This document shows, piece by piece, positions 1-10,356 of a DNA stretch of 11,130 nucleotides; the stretch's first letter is position 1, and each line of letters opens with the position of its first letter. Both the position numbers and the translations under genes were made by a program. Source of the stretch: a virus. The stretch lies in the UHGV virus genome UHGV-0057427; one strand, 5' to 3'. The notes beneath the pieces are model-generated. The model did no database searches. It was not told the DNA's origin and saw only the letters and a program-made list of their open reading frames with translations.

Positions 1-747
1 GTACATCTCGCAGATTTGTTTATGAGTACGACCATCCTGCACACACATCAGGCGAATTTCGTTTGCCCAGGCTGCCCAGTTCGGTTCTTTGGGACGAACC
101 ACCTCGCCGTCACATTCGGCGGCATGCTCGTACAGGGCGATGATTTTTTTCCAGAGCCACTGTGCGCAGGTCAAATCATCCTGCGTCCCCCACTGGCGCT
201 TTTTAGGGCTGAATACAACCGCATCAGGATGGCAAGTTAAAAAATCCTGTTCAGCCGTCTGCGTGTCCGGTTGCGAAGCGTCCGGACGAGAAGTTTTTTT
301 ATCTGACGGATCATGTTTTGATTTTACTGACGGATCCCCACCAGATTCTGACGGGTGAAAACCCGCTTTTTTGCCAGATTTCGACGCATCAAATTTTGAC
401 GGGTCAGATTTTGATGCGTCAGATTTTGACGGGTCAGAATCTGACAGTTGAGAAAATGCCGCTGCCTGAAGCTTCGCAACGTTAAGCTGATAAACATTCG
501 ACGCATTGCGGTTACCCTGGCGACGCGCCCTACGCGTTAACCAGCCTTCTGCTTCCAGCCGTGCGATAGCCGTTCTGACGGTACTCATCCCCGCGCCAAT
601 CTGGCGGGCAATGGTTTCAATTGATGGCCAGCACACACCTTCGTCATTACTGAAATCAGCCAGGCGGGCCATAATTGCCACGCTGGATAATTTCATGCCT
701 GATGCAGCGCAACCATCCCATACATAGCCGGTTAATTTAGTGCTCAT
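1..747 (-). CDS. Phage replication initiation protein, lambda O-like (N-terminal 249 codons; C-terminus off the left edge)
   Basis: Not in the ORF track because no stop lies in the window. I translated the minus strand by hand from ATG at 747-745 and found no stop through nt 1: MSTKLTGYVWDGCAASGMKLSSVAIMARLADFSNDEGVCWPSIETIARQIGAGMSTVRTAIARLEAEGWLTRR..., an HTH-like N-terminal domain followed by an S/D/P/K pentapeptide-repeat linker encoded by the 15-bp iterons. SD-like AGAGGT lies 4 nt upstream. The position after cro and cII matches lambda O. Confidence 0.6.
   Translation of the reverse strand, partial: MSTKLTGYVWDGCAASGMKLSSVAIMARLADFSNDEGVCWPSIETIARQIGAGMSTVRTAIARLEAEGWLTRRARRQGNRNASNVYQLNVAKLQAAAFSQLSDSDPSKSDASKSDPSKFDASKSGKKAGFHPSESGGDPSVKSKHDPSDKKTSRPDASQPDTQTAEQDFLTCHPDAVVFSPKKRQWGTQDDLTCAQWLWKKIIALYEHAAECDGEVVRPKEPNWAAWANEIRLMCVQDGRTHKQICEMY
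301..450. repeat. Candidate replication origin iterons: five contiguous 15-bp direct repeats (376-450) plus three degenerate copies (301-360), inside the O-like gene
   Basis: Units 376-390 agatttcgacgcatc, 391-405 aaattttgacgggtc, 406-420 agattttgatgcgtc, 421-435 agattttgacgggtc, 436-450 agaatctgacagttg; degenerate copies around 301-315, 320-336 and 344-358. In lambda the ori iterons lie inside the O gene (established knowledge). Confidence 0.6.
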
Positions 748-756
748 GACCGACCT

Positions 757-1095
757 CTATTTCCCTGAATTTACGACGAAACTGTTCGAGCGGGCTGAAG
801 CACTCATGCTCATAGCCTTCGCGGAGGTAGATAACACGTTGTGTTTCCGGCTCCCAACGAATGACTCTGACGGGCACTCCGTAGTGATCTTTGAACCAGC
901 GGTTAACTTGTCGCAAAGGACTGTCTCCTTCTGCCGGTTGAAATCACCCACAGCCCACTCTGCAAAGCTGTGGGTTACAATTTCCCTGTCACCTGGTACA
1001 TTTACTGCATAGCAATACTCCACCTTCGCTTTTCCACCCGGTACAGGAAGCGCAATCAGTTGCGAGCGACGGTAGTGTGTTGTTAAACTGTTCAT
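757..1095 (-). CDS. Hypothetical protein (112 aa) between the CII-like and O-like genes
   Basis: ATG at 1095-1093 overlaps the TGA stop of the upstream CII-like ORF (ATGA coupling), same strand as the cro-cII-O operon. Composition is unremarkable and S/T-rich at the C-terminus; no motif recognised. An antisense plus-strand ORF (740-1012) also exists, so coding status is uncertain. Confidence 0.35.
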
Positions 1096-1655
1096 GCGTT
1101 AGTTTCTCCACAGTCACGACACGCCACGGCGCCCGGAGCTGCACACTCGCGGGCGTCATTACTTTCTGAAATGCAAAAAATTTTGTAGACCAGTGCTGCA
1201 TGCTCCTGCAGCTTCGAAATTGAGAGGTACAGCTCGTCGTTAATTGCTGTCTTCTCATGCGGTTCCACTACACCGTCTTCAATTGCTGAACGAATCTGTT
1301 TTGAATAACTGCCGATCTGTTCAATGACTTCCAGCAGGCGCTGGTTAATATCGGCGTTGTCCACATCCTCGACGTCAGGAAGAGACACAAAGACGCCATT
1401 TGCAGACTGCGCCACAGCATCAGCAATGAAGTGAGTGCCACCAGCACGCTGTAAAACCATTGCCCATCCCAGCGGGAAAATCTGATCGCCATCTGCACGA
1501 AGGCGGTTGAATAAAGCGTTTTCTGTTACATCGAGCCAATCAGCCGCTTCAGCGTAACCACCCGGCAACGCCGCGATAGTTTTTCTGACAGCTTTCACGT
1601 ACCACTCAGGCTGTTTTTCTATTTTCCAGTGATGCTTACCCACGATTAGCCTCAT
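1092..1655 (-). CDS. Phage regulatory protein at the CII position (CII-like/YdaT-like), 187 aa
   Basis: Intact ORF directly downstream of the cro-like gene and upstream of the replication gene, same strand, stop overlapping the next start. Assignment is positional; I cannot confirm family membership without an HMM search. Confidence 0.45.
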
Positions 1656-2691: not shown

Positions 2692-2724
2692 TTGACAATG
2701 TACCTTTGAGATACATAATGTACC
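2692..2724 (+). promoter_or_regulatory. Sigma70-type promoter (TTGACA-16-CATAAT) overlapped by GTAC-core operator-like sites, reading rightward
   Basis: TTGACA at 2692-2697, CATAAT at 2714-2719. The palindrome ATGTA...TACAT (2698-2716) and a second AATGTACC (2717-2724) share the GTAC core of the cI/cro operators. No plus-strand ORF follows; the downstream gene is on the opposite strand. Confidence 0.45.
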
Positions 2725-2802
2725 CAAGAGAAACAACAAACAGGCAGGACGCCCACGAAGTATCCGCCTGGGGCATATGAAGTCCAGGATGATTCGTTAG
2801 CA

Positions 2803-4279: not shown

Positions 4280-5104
4280 ATGTCTCAGAACTTAGACGCA
4301 ACCGCAATTAATCAAATCCATGCCCTTATTTCTGCTCAGGGTGTTAATGAAATTATCAGTAAGATTGGTGCCGATGCTGTGGCATTGCCTGAGAATTTCC
4401 GCATTCATGATCTGGAAAAATTTAATTTAAATCGCTTCCGTTTCCGTGGTGCGCTTTCCACTGCCAGCATCGATGACTTTACCCGTTATTCTAAAGATCT
4501 TGCAGATGAAGGCACCCGCTGCTTTATCGATGCTGATAATATGCGTGCCGTCAGTGTGCTTAACCTGGGTACTATTGATGAACCAGGTCACGCAGATAAC
4601 ACCGCCACTCTCAAACTGAAAAAGACAGCACCGTTCTCTGCCCTGTTGTCTGTTAACGGCGAGCGTAACTCCCAGAAGTCACTGGCAGAATGGATTGAAG
4701 ACTGGGCCGACTACCTTGTGGGCTTTGATGCTAATGGTGACGCCATTCAGGCAACCAAAGCGGCTGCGGCGATCCGTAAAATCACAATTGAAGCGAACCA
4801 GACCGCTGATTTTGAAGATAATGACTTCAGCGGCAAACGCTCCCTGATGGAGTCTGTCGAAGCGAAGACCAAAGACATTATGCCAGTGGCATTTGAATTT
4901 AAATGCGTTCCGTTTGAAGGTCTGAAAGAACGTCCGTTTAAATTACGCCTCAGCATTATCACTGGCGATCGTCCTGTACTGGTACTACGCATTATTCAGC
5001 TGGAAGCAGTGCAGGAGGAAATGGCTAACGAATTTCGTGATCTGCTTGTTGAGAAGTTCAAAGACAGCAAAGTAGAAACCTTTATTGGTACTTTCACCGC
5101 CTGA
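4280..5104 (+). CDS. yfdQ: YfdQ-like prophage protein (274 aa)
   Basis: ATG with GAGGA SD; length equals my recollection of K-12 CPS-53 YfdQ (274 aa) and it is followed by an HD-domain protein of YfdR size. The assignment is by size and synteny, not by alignment. Confidence 0.6.
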
Positions 5105-6659: not shown

Positions 6660-6983
6660 ACAGAACCAAATCTAATCTGAGTGTCCACTTTGTGGTGTGA
6701 GTTCAACCGATGGATGCAACACACAGGCGGAAGCTGAATGCATACTCACCTTTGTATCCCAGCGTGCTGTAACAATGAACAACAACACTCTGGTGATTTG
6801 ACGAGTGCTTAAATTCTTTCAGTAACAATGTATTGTTAGTTTACATAGTTGTAAATAAATATAGTTTATTGTAACATTTTGCTTGCAATGTCATTTAAGC
6901 AACCTGCTTACTTTGAGGGCTTTGATGATAGATGAATCCTTACTAAAATTATCATTTTTATGTATTGATTGAAGAGAAGATTA

Positions 6984-8984
6984 ATGATAGATAAATCAAT
7001 TACTAACCCTGGTTTCCATAAGCAGTTTCTATTAGAAAGGTTCAATGCTGATGAACAAAAAATATTAAAGTTATTATCAAAAGGATGGTATTTAACTAAT
7101 TCTGGCGAGGAGTTACAAATTGCTCAATCCAGATATAATTATTTTCTGATGAAACCTACACCAAAAACCTCTGAAATGTTCAACATTGAGAGAGAGATTG
7201 TTTGTGTATTTAGTAACTACGATTATTTTGAACCAAGAACATTAGATTTTTTCGAACAAGTTTACATGCGTCTTCCAAAGATGCGCACAGAGATGGTTTG
7301 TGCTGTTCTAATTGGCAGAGCTCCTGATACAGAAGAAAAGGTTGAACAGCTTCTTAAAGCTGATCCAGAGCATCAAATCATTGTACCTGTTAGTTATACT
7401 GAAATGATGTGCACAGATGCACTTCGAACACTTGAAAATAGATTTAGAAAACATTTCTACTCTCGAGATTTATTCTCCTTTTTATCTCCACTTAAAAAAG
7501 ATACATACTTTTTTGGTCGTTCAAATCTTATCAATGAGATTGTAAATCGATTCCAATCTGGGGAGCACACTAGCCTTTTTGGTCTTAGGAAAAGCGGAAA
7601 AACATCGATTGTATATGCAATCCAGAGACGTTTAGAGGCAAAAGGAGATTGTTTTGTATCATTAGATTGCGAAAGCCCATCAATACATGGCCTTCGCTGG
7701 TATGAATTACTTGAGAAACTAGTATTATTATATCTAGAGGCAAAAAAATCTAAAGTTAAAATTAACACATCTGGTAGATATGATGTTAAGAATGCTGCAG
7801 AGAGCTTTGAAACAGATATATTAAAAATTTACAACTCAAAAAAAACAGCAAGTGCTATATTTATTTTCGATGAAATTGAAAGAATTACACCGACAACGGG
7901 AGCTTCGATTCACTGGAGAGAAGAAACCGATTTTATATACTTTTGGCAGACAATGCGCGGTTTTTACCAGAAACATCCGTCTGTTTTCTGTTATATGTTA
8001 GTTGGCACAAACCCAAGTTGTATAGAAACACCATCATTATTGGGGCATGACAATCCAATTTATGCTTCAATTCAAAGCCAATATGTTCCTCCTTTTACTG
8101 TTGATCAAGTTAGTCAAATGGTTACACGTTTAGGTGATTATATGGGATTAAAATTTGACAATTTGATCACTGCAAAACTGGCAGAAGACTATGGCGGACA
8201 TCCATTTTTAATTCGCCAAGCTTGCAGCCAAATTAACAAGCTAATCCCTTCAGATAGACCTGTAACAATTGATAAATCTCTATATAATAAGTCTAAGATC
8301 GAGTTTAGGAACAACTCTCAGGAGTATTTAGCAATGATGATTCAGGTATTGTCGGAATGGTATCCTGATGAGTACGAAATGCTATGTTTACTCGCTCAAG
8401 GGGATATGGATAGTTTCAATTCATTTGCTCAGGATCATACATCTTATACTCGACATTTAATTGGCTATGGGCTTATTCAAAAAGGCACATCTGGTTATTC
8501 CTTTAACCTTGAGGAAATTTCTGATTTGCTTAGAAAAAAACATCAACATGAAAGATTAAACCTGACAGATGAAGAAAAGGTTCAAGAGATTTCAATTAGA
8601 AGAAATCGCTTAGAAAAAGGTTTGCGGATACTTGTCAGGAACACATTAAAAATATATAAGGGTTCAAATAAAGCAAAAGATGCTGTTATTTCTGCAGTTC
8701 CTGATGGGCGAAAATCAACATTACAAAATTACGATTTATCCAAACTATTAGATCCTGATTCATCTCCATTATTCTTTCTCGAATTAATTAACATAATTAC
8801 GAGAGAGTGGGTGATTTTTGATAATGTTTTTGGGATTAATAAAGAAAAAATAAAAATTATGCTTGAGGAAATTAACACTAAAGGACGTCCAGATGCACAT
8901 GCAAAATGTATTGACGAAGATGATTTTCAGCAATTAAGGCTTTACTTCAAAAAGCTTGAGTTAATACTTCAAGAGTGGTTATAA
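6984..8984 (+). CDS. P-loop NTPase with STAND/ORC-Cdc6-type AAA+ motif order, unknown N- and C-terminal domains (666 aa); candidate defense cargo
   Basis: Walker A GLRKSGKTS (nt 7581-7607) preceded by FFGRSNLINEIVNRF, Walker B IFIFDE (nt 7860-7874), sensor-1-like MLVGTN, GxP-like YGGHPFLIRQ. Codon usage is visibly AT-rich compared with neighbours. First ATG at 6984 with purine-rich SD; track start 6969 is TTG. Stands alone between xis-like and int. Confidence 0.8.
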   Translation: MIDKSITNPGFHKQFLLERFNADEQKILKLLSKGWYLTNSGEELQIAQSRYNYFLMKPTPKTSEMFNIEREIVCVFSNYDYFEPRTLDFFEQVYMRLPKMRTEMVCAVLIGRAPDTEEKVEQLLKADPEHQIIVPVSYTEMMCTDALRTLENRFRKHFYSRDLFSFLSPLKKDTYFFGRSNLINEIVNRFQSGEHTSLFGLRKSGKTSIVYAIQRRLEAKGDCFVSLDCESPSIHGLRWYELLEKLVLLYLEAKKSKVKINTSGRYDVKNAAESFETDILKIYNSKKTASAIFIFDEIERITPTTGASIHWREETDFIYFWQTMRGFYQKHPSVFCYMLVGTNPSCIETPSLLGHDNPIYASIQSQYVPPFTVDQVSQMVTRLGDYMGLKFDNLITAKLAEDYGGHPFLIRQACSQINKLIPSDRPVTIDKSLYNKSKIEFRNNSQEYLAMMIQVLSEWYPDEYEMLCLLAQGDMDSFNSFAQDHTSYTRHLIGYGLIQKGTSGYSFNLEEISDLLRKKHQHERLNLTDEEKVQEISIRRNRLEKGLRILVRNTLKIYKGSNKAKDAVISAVPDGRKSTLQNYDLSKLLDPDSSPLFFLELINIITREWVIFDNVFGINKEKIKIMLEEINTKGRPDAHAKCIDEDDFQQLRLYFKKLELILQEWL

Positions 8985-9081: not shown

Positions 9082-10356
9082 TTATCGTTCAAAGCGGGCT
9101 GTCAGATTTGATTGAGTCCTACTAAGCAAACTATCAGTTGTGTCCGCACTAGTACAAGTAATGATCGATTCAACTCTCTCCCACCATGCCTGGTAGGCTT
9201 TACGCTGTTCTTCTAGATAATCGCTCTTGTCATAAACTTGCCATACCCCTGGCAGTTTATGACCTAGCATTATTTCTGCAATATGAGGCGCAGTAAGATC
9301 AGAAAAGTTTGTTCGTGCTGTTCGCCTCAAATCATGAAGAGACCAATGAGGGAATTGATACCCCAAACGCCGCCATGCGTACTGCATTAAATTGTAAGGC
9401 AGCGACTGCAATGATGTCCGACCAACGGGTTCCCTGCTTCCTTCCTTAGTAAAAAGCATATCGGAACCATTATTCATAGAAATAGCGTACTTTATAAGCT
9501 CTTCAACCGGTTCAATAATGGGCCGCTTTAGCGGTTCGCCCGTTATCTCCCCAGTCTTATGTCGTTCTGGTGGTACAGTCCATACTTTATTAATGAAATC
9601 AAAATCGTCCACCCTGGCGGTAATTAGCTCTGAACTACGGCAGCCAAAATGCAGCAATAGTTTAATGAAGGCCCGGTATTTAGGAACCATTCGAGAACCA
9701 TCGATCGCAGCATAAAGGATTTTAATTTCATCATGTGTCAGAAACCGTTTCTTCTGACCTTTACGGATATCCATATCTTTACCCGTGATATCCGACAACG
9801 GGCGAGTTTCAATGAGCTTTCTCTTATACGCCCAGACATGGGCCTGCTTTGCGTTAATTAGCAATCGGTCTGCTATTGCTGGAGTCTTAGTGCTAAGAGG
9901 CTCCAGGACTTCTAACCAATCATGCAATGTAGCTGCATCGTGAGGGATATTCCCGATTTTAGAGAACAGGTGCAGCTCAAACGAGCGGAGTATCTGTTCA
10001 GAACCTTTTTTATTTTTTACACAATATGCTTCATACCAGGCACGGATCACAGACTCTACCGTCATGGCTTCAGTAGCTTTTCGTTTTTCAGCCTGCTTGA
10101 CCAATCGTGGATTACGGTTTGACTCGAGTTCACCACGGAGACGGGTAACTTCTTCTCTGGCCTCTTTTAATCCAGTTGCCGGGTAAGTTCCGATATCAAG
10201 ACGCTCACCTTTCCCTGCCCATTGATAACGATATTGGAACACTACGCGACCTTTCGGTGATACTCTGACAGACAGACCATCACGATCGGATTTAACCAAA
10301 ACCTTATCACGTTCCTTTCCAACGACTGAACGCAACCACGCATCAGACAGCGCCAT
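9082..10356 (-). CDS. int: Phage integrase, tyrosine recombinase (424 aa)
   Basis: N-terminal arm-binding-type region (GLSVRVSPKGRVVFQYRYQWAGKGERLDIGTYPATGLKEAREE), C-terminal catalytic signatures HDLRRTART and conserved Tyr region (LGHKLPGVWQVYDKSDY). It lies adjacent to the host junction. Confidence 0.9.
   Translation of the reverse strand: MALSDAWLRSVVGKERDKVLVKSDRDGLSVRVSPKGRVVFQYRYQWAGKGERLDIGTYPATGLKEAREEVTRLRGELESNRNPRLVKQAEKRKATEAMTVESVIRAWYEAYCVKNKKGSEQILRSFELHLFSKIGNIPHDAATLHDWLEVLEPLSTKTPAIADRLLINAKQAHVWAYKRKLIETRPLSDITGKDMDIRKGQKKRFLTHDEIKILYAAIDGSRMVPKYRAFIKLLLHFGCRSSELITARVDDFDFINKVWTVPPERHKTGEITGEPLKRPIIEPVEELIKYAISMNNGSDMLFTKEGSREPVGRTSLQSLPYNLMQYAWRRLGYQFPHWSLHDLRRTARTNFSDLTAPHIAEIMLGHKLPGVWQVYDKSDYLEEQRKAYQAWWERVESIITCTSADTTDSLLSRTQSNLTARFER

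What the first reader, a model, noticed from the sequence alone, without database searches (positions are those of the whole stretch)
301..450. Replication-origin iterons embedded in the O-like gene and translated as a pentapeptide-repeat linker
Five contiguous 15-bp direct repeats (376-450) and three degenerate upstream copies lie inside the O-like initiator ORF, with an AT-rich stretch nearby. Because the unit is 15 bp, the repeats are translated in-frame as SDPSK/SDASK-type pentapeptides linking the N-terminal HTH domain to the rest of the protein. This matches the lambda arrangement (ori inside O, established knowledge) but with a different repeat unit, and gives a directly testable origin.
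Basis: partly seen in the sequence, partly recalled or inferred. Interest (0 to 1): 0.4.

Follow-up and report, generated by a model that had tools for sequence, protein, structure and literature searches.

The report
Probable phage replication origin inside initiator gene
A run of short palindromic DNA repeats in the middle of a prophage's replication-initiator gene is conserved as DNA, not as protein, across many gut-bacterial genera, which marks it as the probable, still untested, replication origin of a common lambda-like phage group.

Summary
Window 1-747 (minus strand) is the 5' part of an O-like initiator gene of an SfII/SfIV/e14-type lambdoid prophage. Codons 100-124 are five 15-bp units read as SDPSK/SDASK. 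Three degenerate copies and a moderately AT-rich stretch follow.

The repeat core is an 11-bp palindrome, TCArAwTCTGr. It occurs six times in 341-444 and nowhere else in the 11 kb.

The main new evidence is comparative. In about 75 homologues from Escherichia to Providencia, synonymous codon choice is nearly saturated in the HTH domain (0.79) and in the C-terminal domain. It collapses to 0.25 (median 0.11) in codons 98-161 (p=4e-20). Saturated positions sit between the frozen ones. K/E and S/F replacements are tolerated, but AAA to AAG is not (250:1). Selection therefore acts on the DNA.

No alternative frame is conserved, and there is no Rfam or promoter signal. Unit number varies from 2 to 11 in steps of 15 bp.

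The element always lies inside this Rep gene, once per contig. The C-terminal domain is homologous to lambda O (E=1e-25). The N-terminal domain is HTH_36, not Phage_rep_O, and close relatives carry no P-like gene.

Verdict: a lambda-style origin embedded in the initiator gene, supported by comparison but untested. It is a new member of a known kind, of moderate interest.

The parts
1..747 (-). 5' part (249 codons) of the O-like replication initiator gene. It is truncated by the window edge; the full length is 313 aa in Shigella phage SfIV.
   Evidence: Translation. 98.7-99.2% DNA identity to SfIV/SfII/E. coli phages annotated as replication protein O or primosomal protein. phrog_391 'replication initiation O-like', E=1.6e-135. 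C-terminal domain homologous to lambda O, E=1e-25.
538..681 (-). Winged helix-turn-helix DNA-binding domain (Pfam HTH_36, aa 23-70), the presumed iteron reader.
   Evidence: PF13730 E=3e-11. Weaker matches to DnaD_N and RepC N-terminal domain. AF2 topology H-H-H-H-strand-strand-H. Recognition helix and wing residues are invariant in all relatives.
374..450 (.). Tandem array of five 15-bp units, TCTGACnnnTCAAAA on the gene strand. Each junction forms the 11-bp palindrome TCArAwTCTGr, with sites at 374-384, 389-399, 404-414, 419-429 and 434-444. These are the candidate iterons. They encode SDxSK pentapeptides.
   Evidence: Codon table of 385 units from 77 loci: TCT 232/271 Ser, GAC 249/303 Asp, TCA 317/366 Ser, AAA 250 vs AAG 1, GAA 80 vs GAG 0, middle codon free. 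Unit number is 2-11 per locus.
352..373 (.). Variable spacer (GGCAAAAAAGCGGGTTTTCACCCG on the gene strand) between the array and the solitary sixth site.
   Evidence: Per-position conservation is only 48-77% at positions -25 to -15, rising to >93% from about -13.
341..351 (.). Sixth, solitary palindromic site, TCAGAATCTGG. It is the most conserved copy.
   Evidence: Positions 0 to +7 are 93-100% identical in 73 loci. The Proteus/Providencia clade at 51-54% protein identity keeps the same core CCAGAATCTGG inside 33-bp repeats.
289..336 (.). Two 24-bp A/T-rich direct repeats, each headed by GATC: GATCCGTCAGTAAAATCAAAACAT and GATCCGTCAGATAAAAAAACTTCT on the gene strand. This is the candidate DNA-unwinding element and possible Dam/SeqA target.
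   Evidence: It overlaps the least stable 20-40-mers of the gene (296-327, 70-75% A+T) and carries GATC at 309 and 333. Nucleotides are 85-99% conserved. Asp codons here are GAT in 100% of loci, whereas Asp in the array is mostly GAC. GATCCGTCAG x2 is kept even in a 47%-identity relative.
265..456 (.). Full zone of suppressed synonymous variation (codons 98-161): the cis-acting element as delimited by comparative analysis.
   Evidence: Normalised synonymous entropy is 0.25 (median 0.11) here versus 0.79 in codons 1-97, Mann-Whitney p=3.8e-20. The trough is 0.11-0.28, flanked by 0.6-0.8 on both sides, in 36 full-length loci.

Best explanation
Window about 265-456 is the replication origin of this lambdoid prophage, embedded in its own initiator gene at the junction of the two protein domains.

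Inferred mechanism:
1. The initiator's N-terminal winged-HTH domain binds, probably as dimers, to the 11-bp palindromes TCArAwTCTGr. There are five in a 15-bp tandem array plus one solitary high-conservation site.
2. The resulting nucleoprotein complex destabilises the adjacent A/T-rich pair of GATC-headed 24-bp repeats (289-336).
3. The lambda-O-like C-terminal domain recruits the host helicase machinery without a phage P protein.
4. Transcription of the gene from the early rightward promoter passes through the origin, as in lambda.

Because the unit is 15 bp (5 codons), the array can expand or contract without breaking the reading frame. The encoded SDxSK linker is largely a passenger of the DNA motif.

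Shown: the repeats, their palindromic core, DNA-level purifying selection, co-inheritance with the HTH domain, and copy-number variation. Inferred: Rep binding, unwinding site and origin activity.
For: 1) DNA-level, not protein-level, constraint.
- Across 75-77 homologues from different species, synonymous codon entropy is 0.79 in the HTH domain and 0.25 (median 0.11) in codons 98-161, p=3.8e-20.
- Codons with identical amino acids differ in 58% of comparisons in the HTH domain and 17% in the linker.
- The C-terminal domain is again 0.6-0.8.

2) Frozen and saturated positions interleave.
- The middle codon of each unit (entropy 1.05-1.55 bits, 3-4 codons) and Gly136 (1.71 bits) are saturated.
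- Neighbouring Ser, Lys and Asp codons use a single codon.
- This excludes a recent sweep of the whole segment.

3) Non-conservative replacements are tolerated where they are transitions at the degenerate positions of TyTGA/TCArA: K/E (AAA/GAA) and S/F (TCT/TTT). Silent AAA to AAG (1 of 251) and GAA to GAG (0 of 80) are not.

4) The conserved nucleotides form 11-bp palindromes with a 1-nt centre. That suits a dimeric dsDNA-binding protein and is too tight for an RNA hairpin. They occur at 6 sites clustered in 104 bp, against 0.79 strand-matches expected in 11 kb.

5) Modular co-inheritance.
- The HTH domain plus repeat region is found with at least two unrelated C-terminal domains, lambda-O-like and Phg_2220_C.
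- The exact 29-mer core occurs once per contig. It lies in frame behind the Rep N-terminus in 75 of 76 evaluable IMG/VR contigs; the exception is an IS66 insertion.

6) Layout matches ori-lambda: binding sites, then an A/T-rich tract, in the direction of transcription, in the inter-domain linker of an O protein (PMC7466680). The C-domain is homologous to lambda O, E=1e-25.

7) Site number varies from 2 to 11 in steps of 15 bp, as iteron number varies among lambdoid origins (4 in lambda, 6 in Stx phages; PMC7466680).

8) Divergent clades keep the architecture with altered units. Examples are 33-bp repeats around CCAGAATCTGG and 15-bp TTGACCCGTCAA units.
Against: - There is no experiment. Neither binding nor origin activity is shown for this or any close relative. 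O-only lambdoid modules are stated to be unstudied (PMC12315714).
- The A/T-rich tract is modest (70% over 40 bp), and no DnaA box lies nearby.
- The 15-bp spacing puts successive sites on nearly opposite faces of the helix. That is unusual for iteron arrays, which are typically about two helical turns apart.
- The array is palindromic in two registers (TCArA-N-TyTGA and TyTGA-N4-TCArA), so the true binding register is undetermined.
- The entropy statistics are not corrected for phylogeny.
- The positive control on the lambda O family could not be done, because the scan returned only loci 99-100% identical to lambda.
Confidence: 0.7

Rival explanations
1. The repeats are Rep-binding sites used for control rather than initiation. 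Examples would be autoregulatory roadblock, titration or 'handcuffing' sites inside the gene, with the true start of replication elsewhere in the phage genome.
For: Palindromic sites under DNA-level selection that are co-inherited with the HTH domain fit any Rep-binding function. Plasmid iterons are known to serve in both initiation and control (PMC3401445).
Against: No second cluster of the motif exists in the 11 kb window, and the core occurs once per viral contig. The sites abut a conserved A/T-rich, GATC-bearing repeat pair, as origins do. The position is the same as ori-lambda in a protein with a lambda-O C-domain.
Confidence: 0.1
2. It is another cis-acting DNA site that is not read by Rep. 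Candidates are a host-factor or SeqA/Dam-controlled site, or a conserved recombination joint that mediates exchange of initiator domains between lambdoid phages.
For: The constrained zone ends exactly where C-terminal domains are swapped. Two GATC sites are fixed, with Asp codons GAT in 100% of loci there. Methylase genes lie next to rep in KpF5 and phiNP.
Against: A recombination joint needs homology, not palindromes. It would not explain nucleotide-by-nucleotide interleaving of frozen and saturated positions, or tandem units of variable number. The co-inheritance is with the HTH domain specifically.
Confidence: 0.08
3. The segment is only a low-complexity, disordered protein linker made by replication slippage. 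On this view, nucleotide uniformity reflects concerted evolution or codon preference rather than a DNA function.
For: The linker is predicted to be disordered. Unit number changes by slippage-like steps of 15 bp. A database variant, P0032, reads part of the array in another frame.
Against: The fixed codons are maintained between genera whose flanking domains have saturated synonymous sites. The same amino acid uses different fixed codons at different places: Asp is GAC in the array and GAT at the GATC sites. Charge-reversing K/E changes are tolerated but silent AAA/AAG changes are not. The non-repeated block 301-361 is the most conserved part, so homogenisation among repeats cannot explain it.
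Confidence: 0.05
4. An overlapping gene or a structured or antisense RNA constrains the nucleotides.
For: ORFs are open in the window on both strands across the array: 324-506 minus (60 aa) and 318-485 plus (55 aa). The repeats can pair with each other (inverted repeats I1-I8). There is a weak Rfam hit (mir-5880, 30.7 bits against a gathering score of 97).
Against: No alternative frame is open in all loci. The best antisense frame is open in 34 of 75 and the others in 0-1 of 75. The ATG of the 60-aa ORF depends on Asn81 being AAT, which holds in only 53% of loci. The Rfam hit is far below threshold and belongs to a eukaryotic miRNA family. No promoter-like site was found. The 11-bp palindromes leave a 1-nt loop, which cannot fold as RNA.
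Confidence: 0.04

Closest known systems
Bacteriophage lambda O protein with ori-lambda, and its Stx-phage variants
   Same: - The origin sits in the middle of the initiator gene, in the linker between the DNA-binding N-domain and the C-domain.
- It has dyad-symmetric repeated binding sites, followed in the direction of transcription by an A/T-rich tract (PMC7466680).
- The number of sites varies between phages (4 in lambda, 6 in Stx phages).
- The C-terminal domain here is homologous to that of lambda O (30% identity, E=1e-25).
- The gene order is the same: cI, cro, cII, then the initiator.
   Different: - The N-terminal domain is Pfam HTH_36, not Phage_rep_O.
- The sites are 11-bp palindromes on a strict 15-bp in-frame period, not 18-19-bp iterons spaced 20-24 bp apart.
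- Copy number varies from 2 to 11, even among close relatives.
- The A/T-rich part is two GATC-headed 24-bp repeats and is only 70% A+T.
- Close relatives have no P gene.
- One initiator and site specificity is shared from Escherichia to Providencia.
'O-only' lambdoid replication modules (phage LLS and 34 of 314 Enterobacterales lambdoid phages; PMC12315714)
   Same: These are single-gene replication modules with an O homologue and no helicase or helicase loader. SfIV, KpF5 and phiNP show the same: rep is followed by PerC-like and LexA-like genes or by methylase genes.
   Different: That paper describes the gene content and states that replication of this type is not understood. The passages I retrieved from it (a term search, not a full read) do not describe an origin. 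I did not test whether the LLS O protein belongs to this HTH_36 clade.
Iteron-type plasmid origins with winged-helix Rep initiators (pPS10, R6K, RepC-type)
   Same: A winged-HTH initiator is combined with repeated binding sites and an adjacent A/T-rich unwinding element. There are weak Pfam matches of the N-domain to RepC N-terminal (RP-C) and DnaD_N.
   Different: Plasmid iterons are usually 17-22-bp direct repeats bound by monomers, and they lie outside the rep gene. Here the sites are palindromic, spaced 15 bp apart, and inside the coding sequence.
HTH_36 + Phg_2220_C 'O-like' proteins, the DnaT C-terminal motif, and DopC (PMC5509034)
   Same: The domain architecture HTH_36 ... Phg_2220_C is treated there as lambda-O-like. 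Many relatives of this Rep have exactly that architecture.
   Different: DopC is a domesticated chromosomal gene in which the authors found no iteron-like sequences. The phage genes here keep a strongly conserved repeat element.

Membership tests
Lambda-type origin embedded in the O initiator gene (ori-lambda kind) | Repeated initiator-binding sites (iterons) located inside the initiator's coding sequence, between its two domains | tested here: met
   Six palindromic sites lie at 341-444 within codons 102-136 of the Rep gene. Flanking domains are defined by Pfam, AF2 and BLASTP. That they are binding sites is inferred.
Lambda-type origin embedded in the O initiator gene (ori-lambda kind) | A/T-rich unwinding tract next to the iterons, on the promoter-distal side | tested here: inconclusive
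   Window 288-327 is 70% A+T, the least stable 40-mer in the gene, and lies on the correct side. It is only in the top 10% of the 11 kb window.
Lambda-type origin embedded in the O initiator gene (ori-lambda kind) | Sequence conserved as DNA (cis-acting) independently of the protein code | tested here: met
   Synonymous entropy is 0.25 versus 0.79, p=3.8e-20. The trough is flanked by both domains. AAA:AAG is 250:1.
Lambda-type origin embedded in the O initiator gene (ori-lambda kind) | Initiator binds the repeats and the fragment supports initiator-dependent replication | not testable with these tools
   This needs EMSA or footprinting and a conditional-plasmid replication assay. No report was found in the searched literature.
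Lambda O protein family | N-terminal Phage_rep_O (PF04492) DNA-binding domain | tested here: not met
   Lambda O hits PF04492 at E=5.7e-36. This Rep hits HTH_36 (E=3e-11) and does not hit PF04492 at E<=0.01. BLASTP aligns only residues 70-277 of Rep with lambda O.
Lambda O protein family | C-terminal domain homologous to the lambda O C-domain | tested here: met
   BLASTP E=1e-25, 30% identity over 216 residues. The strongest stretch is aa 182-277 (WGTxxDLT...NVLSPxKLRxKW).
Lambda O protein family | Partner P-type helicase loader encoded immediately downstream | tested here: not met
   In SfIV the next genes are PerC-like and LexA_DNA_bind-like. In KpF5 and phiNP they are methylases. The window itself ends inside rep, so this was tested on relatives with 98.7% to 76-80% DNA identity. 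A 47%-identity relative (L083) does have a DnaC-like gene.
Pfam HTH_36 (PF13730) phage/plasmid initiator N-domains | Match above the Pfam gathering score | tested here: met
   43.4 bits against a cut-off of 25, residues 23-70.

The most novel reading that the evidence does not exclude
The initiator's linker sequence is dictated by the origin rather than by the protein. An in-frame 15-bp iteron array would let slippage change the number of binding sites and the length of the initiator's tether in one step, giving a built-in way to tune origin strength.

In addition, the fixed pair of GATC sites in the unwinding element would couple firing to Dam/SeqA state. The conserved DnaT-like ...IPxGFRG tail would let this 'O-only' initiator load DnaB through host primosome or loader proteins without any phage P.

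This would define how the unstudied O-only lambdoid replicons work.
Probability: 0.2. Interest if true: 0.6.

Novelty: new member of a known kind. Interest (0 to 1): 0.38.

Why it matters
It gives a precise, testable origin (about 190 bp, with defined sites) for a very common family of enterobacterial prophages: SfII/SfIV/SfV, e14-like elements, and many prophages in Salmonella, Citrobacter, Klebsiella and other enterobacterial genomes.

The close relatives examined (SfIV, KpF5, phiNP) carry single-gene 'O-only' replication modules. A 2025 survey states that this type has not been studied experimentally (PMC12315714).

It is also a clean example of a coding segment whose sequence is set by a DNA function. 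Silent changes are forbidden, while charge-reversing amino-acid changes are allowed.

That has two practical consequences. Such segments should not be recoded when engineering these phages. A synonymous-site trough can also be used to find embedded origins in other initiator genes.

Tried and rejected
1) Positive control on lambda O. A scan of viral contigs with lambda O returned 80 loci that were 99-100% identical to lambda. There was no divergence to measure a synonymous trough at the known ori-lambda, so the control was abandoned.

2) Second specificity group. A scan with the 47%-identity Rep of L083 returned only 100%-identical loci. Covariation of the recognition helix with the half-site could be described but not tested statistically.

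3) Plasmid evidence for an autonomous replicon. The plasmid hits were prophages in megaplasmids or mislabelled chromosomes. One was a 16-kb fragment of a Stx-like prophage. They were not informative.

4) Overlapping gene. Rejected, because no alternative frame is consistently open.

5) Known RNA family or internal promoter. Rejected.

6) Solved-structure relatives. Only weak MarR-type wHTH matches were found. The AF2 model has low confidence (mean pLDDT 52), so I ran no fold search on it.

7) Ori-only copies in satellites. The single Rep-less instance, L239, is an IS66 insertion into the array, not a satellite.

8) Literature. I found no description of this origin in the SfIV genome paper (PMC3851460) or in searches for SfV, ST64B, Gifsy or e14. 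The SfV paper is not held, so prior mention there cannot be excluded.

9) NCBIfam gave no specific family for the protein.
Full report
**Context**

The window is the early/left arm of a lambdoid prophage of the SfII/SfIV/e14 type. Bases 1-1200 are 98.4-99.2% identical to Shigella phages SfIV and SfII and to several E. coli phages.

Gene content:
- integrase, 9082-10356, minus strand
- a STAND-type NTPase, 6969-8984
- DUF2303, 4280-5104
- S24 cI repressor, 1978-2652
- a cro-like gene
- CII/YmfL-like, 1092-1655, minus strand
- YmfM-like, 757-1095, minus strand
- the initiator gene, from ATG 747-745 on the minus strand, running off the window start

The full initiator protein is 313 aa in SfIV.

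Tandem Repeats Finder reports 375-438 with period 15 (4.3 copies, 81%) and period 30 (88%). The repeat finder shows the 15-bp register and degenerate copies at 327-356 and 304-322.

On the gene strand the unit is TCTGACnnnTCAAAA. It reads SDPSK, SDASK, SDPSK, FDASK (codons 104-123), preceded by QLSD. It is followed by a spacer, another unit FHPSE, and then SGGDPSVKSKHDPSDKK.

The information-rich core spans the unit junction. It is the 11-bp palindrome TCArAwTCTGr. The pattern YCRRAWTYTGR hits six sites, all between 341 and 444. That is 11 strand-matches against 0.79 expected in the 11,130 bases, and 0 of 200 shuffles reach that number.

The 'AT-rich stretch' is real but modest. Window 288-327 is 70% A+T and is the least stable 40-mer in the gene, yet about 10% of the window's 40-mers are less stable.

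**What the protein is**

- The N-terminus is a winged HTH: Pfam HTH_36, E=3e-11, with weak DnaD_N and RepC-N matches.
- PHROGs assigns the whole protein to 'replication initiation O-like' (phrog_391, E=1.6e-135).
- The C-terminal domain is homologous to that of lambda O (30% identity, E=1e-25).
- The N-domain is not the lambda Phage_rep_O family.
- AlphaFold (26-sequence alignment, low overall confidence) gives a wHTH fold for residues 5-102. It gives pLDDT below 50 with no secondary structure for 102-187, so the repeat-encoded part is a disordered tether.
- In SfIV, KpF5 and phiNP no P-like or DnaC-like gene follows rep. This is the 'O-only' module type that PMC12315714 reports in 34 of 314 lambdoid phages and calls experimentally unstudied.

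**The decisive comparative result**

A scan of one genome per species returned 79 loci from Escherichia, Salmonella relatives, Citrobacter, Enterobacter, Klebsiella/Kluyvera, Pantoea, Erwinia, Yersinia, Rahnella, Proteus and Providencia. Their protein identity to the window is 51-98%.

In a codon alignment of 75 of these loci plus phage genes and the window:
- Conserved residues of the HTH domain use nearly all available synonymous codons (normalised entropy 0.79; 91 columns).
- From codon 98 to 161 the entropy falls to 0.25 (median 0.11; 64 columns). Mann-Whitney p=3.8e-20.
- Codons with the same amino acid differ in 58% of pairwise comparisons in the HTH domain and in 17% in the linker.
- In 36 loci sharing one C-terminal domain type, the profile is high (0.6-0.8), then a trough (0.11-0.28, codons 101-160), then high again (0.5-0.8).

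The trough is not a young, recently spread segment, because saturated positions sit between frozen ones. The middle codon of each unit has 3-4 codons (1.05-1.55 bits) and Gly136 has 1.71 bits. Adjacent Ser, Asp and Lys codons are fixed.

In 385 units:
- position 1 is TCT (232 of 271 Ser) or TTT (Phe)
- position 2 is GAC (249 of 303 Asp)
- position 4 is TCA (317 of 366 Ser)
- position 5 is AAA (250) versus AAG (1), or GAA (80) versus GAG (0)

Lys/Glu and Ser/Phe replacements are therefore tolerated, because they are transitions at the r/y positions of TyTGA...TCArA, while silent changes are not.

Asp is GAC in the array but GAT in 100% of loci where it forms GATC (codons 138 and 146).

The most conserved piece is not the tandem array. 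It is the 60-nt block TTTTsACCCGTCAGAATCTGGnGGGGATCCGTCAGTAAAwTCAAA....GATCCrTCAG (window 361-301), which is mostly 93-100% identical per position (lowest positions about 52-56%) in 73 loci.

**Linkage to the initiator**

The HTH domain plus repeat zone occurs with at least two unrelated C-terminal domains, lambda-O-like and Phg_2220_C. The nucleotide conservation stops where the domains are exchanged.

The exact 29-mer TCAGAATCTGGnGGGGATCCGTCAGTAAA was found in at least 120 IMG/VR contigs, always once. Of the 80 examined:
- 75 have the Rep N-terminus upstream (73 in frame, one variant of the HTH motif, one frameshifted copy)
- 4 are at contig ends
- 1 is an IS66 insertion into the array

Unit number varies in steps of 15 bp: 2-11 across species, 3-8 in viral contigs, and 3-7 among proteins at least 80% identical.

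Divergent clades keep the plan with modified units. Proteus/Providencia loci have 33-bp repeats around CCAGAATCTGG. Trabulsiella has TCAGAwTCyGAAsGT. A 47%-identity E. coli relative has TTGACCCGTCAAnnn units and still has GATCCGTCAG twice.

**Rivals**

- An overlapping gene is unlikely. No alternative frame is open in all loci (best 34 of 75), and the start codon of the 60-aa minus-strand ORF depends on a synonymous choice present in 53% of loci.
- No Rfam family reaches threshold, and no promoter-like site is present. An 11-bp palindrome with a 1-nt centre cannot be an RNA hairpin.
- A pure slippage-made linker is contradicted by the synonymous data and by the non-repeated conserved block.
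- A Rep-binding control site that is not the origin, or a site for another factor, remains possible. However, there is only one such cluster per genome, and it abuts a conserved A/T-rich, GATC-bearing repeat pair.

**Mechanism proposed (inferred)**

1. Rep dimers bind the palindromes through the wHTH domain.
2. The complex opens the adjacent 24-bp repeats (289-336).
3. The lambda-O-like C-domain recruits the host helicase.

The polarity, sites then A/T tract in the direction of transcription, is that of ori-lambda (PMC7466680).

Open points:
- which of the two palindromic registers is read
- how dimers fit on a 15-bp period (about 1.4 helical turns)
- whether the two fixed GATC sites matter
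- how DnaB is loaded without P

**Comparison and novelty**

This works like ori-lambda. It is a partial member of the O family: the C-domain criterion is met, while the N-domain and the P-partner criteria are not.

The arrangement is textbook for lambdoid phages. HTH_36 'O-like' proteins are already recognised (PMC5509034). I found no description of this particular origin in the accessible literature, but the SfV genome paper could not be read.

I rate it a new member of a known kind. Its interesting features are an in-frame, expandable site array, extreme DNA-level conservation across genera, and its place in an unstudied O-only replicon class. Interest 0.38.

Confidence that the segment is a cis-acting DNA element is about 0.95. 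Confidence that it is the origin is about 0.7.

Noticed in passing
L001:2806-2835 (SfIV rep 3' end; outside the window): The initiator ends in ...SQIPAGFRG. This tail is kept (IPxGFRG / SGFRS) across three different C-terminal domain types. PMC5509034 also notes a DnaT C-terminal motif in O-derived proteins. It may be how these initiators reach the host helicase-loading machinery.
   Followed up: partly
window 309-312 and 333-336; L002:1494-2303; L003:1229-2110: Two GATC sites are fixed in the conserved block. In KpF5 and phiNP, and in SfII/SfV according to PMC3851460, a DNA methylase gene lies immediately downstream of rep. This suggests a possible methylation link to origin control.
   Followed up: no
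L075 and L081 (E. coli chromosomes), match 2501-2737: In e14-like elements only the first 79 codons of this Rep survive. They are fused to an unrelated 455-aa ORF that I did not identify; from memory it looks like K-12 YmfN. The repeat/origin segment is deleted there, consistent with a defective prophage.
   Followed up: partly
L239:1-1200: An IS66-family transposase is inserted into the repeat array of one prophage copy. It leaves only the downstream half of the element and a truncated Rep.
   Followed up: yes
Protein P0032: One database variant reads part of the array in the +1 frame (SNLTHQNLTRQNLMRRNLAK) and then returns to frame. It is either a sequencing error or a sign that the linker's amino-acid sequence is dispensable.
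   Followed up: no
window 6969-8984 (+): A 671-aa STAND-type NTPase lies between the integrase and the early genes. Its matches are below threshold (nSTAND1, AAA_16; a weak PADLOC PDC-S01 hit, E=1e-4). It is a possible prophage-borne defence gene.
   Followed up: partly
window 2697-2735: A 20-bp direct repeat (2 copies, 78%) lies just downstream of the cI gene. Its function was not examined.
   Followed up: no
L020/L024, L025/L030, L019/L027, L059/L061/L071: Several genomes (Kluyvera sichuanensis, Enterobacter sp. ENT03, Kosakonia quasisacchari, Providencia sp. PAZ2) carry two or three prophages with this same initiator and site type. This raises the question of how co-resident copies avoid cross-activation or incompatibility.
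   Followed up: no
L084:858-895 (lambda 39157-39194): Just past its A/T-rich tract, lambda's own ori region contains TCGTCAGAGAATTCTGGCGAATCCTCTGACC. This superficially resembles the TCAGAATCTGG core here. It sits at a different relative position, so homology is doubtful.
   Followed up: no
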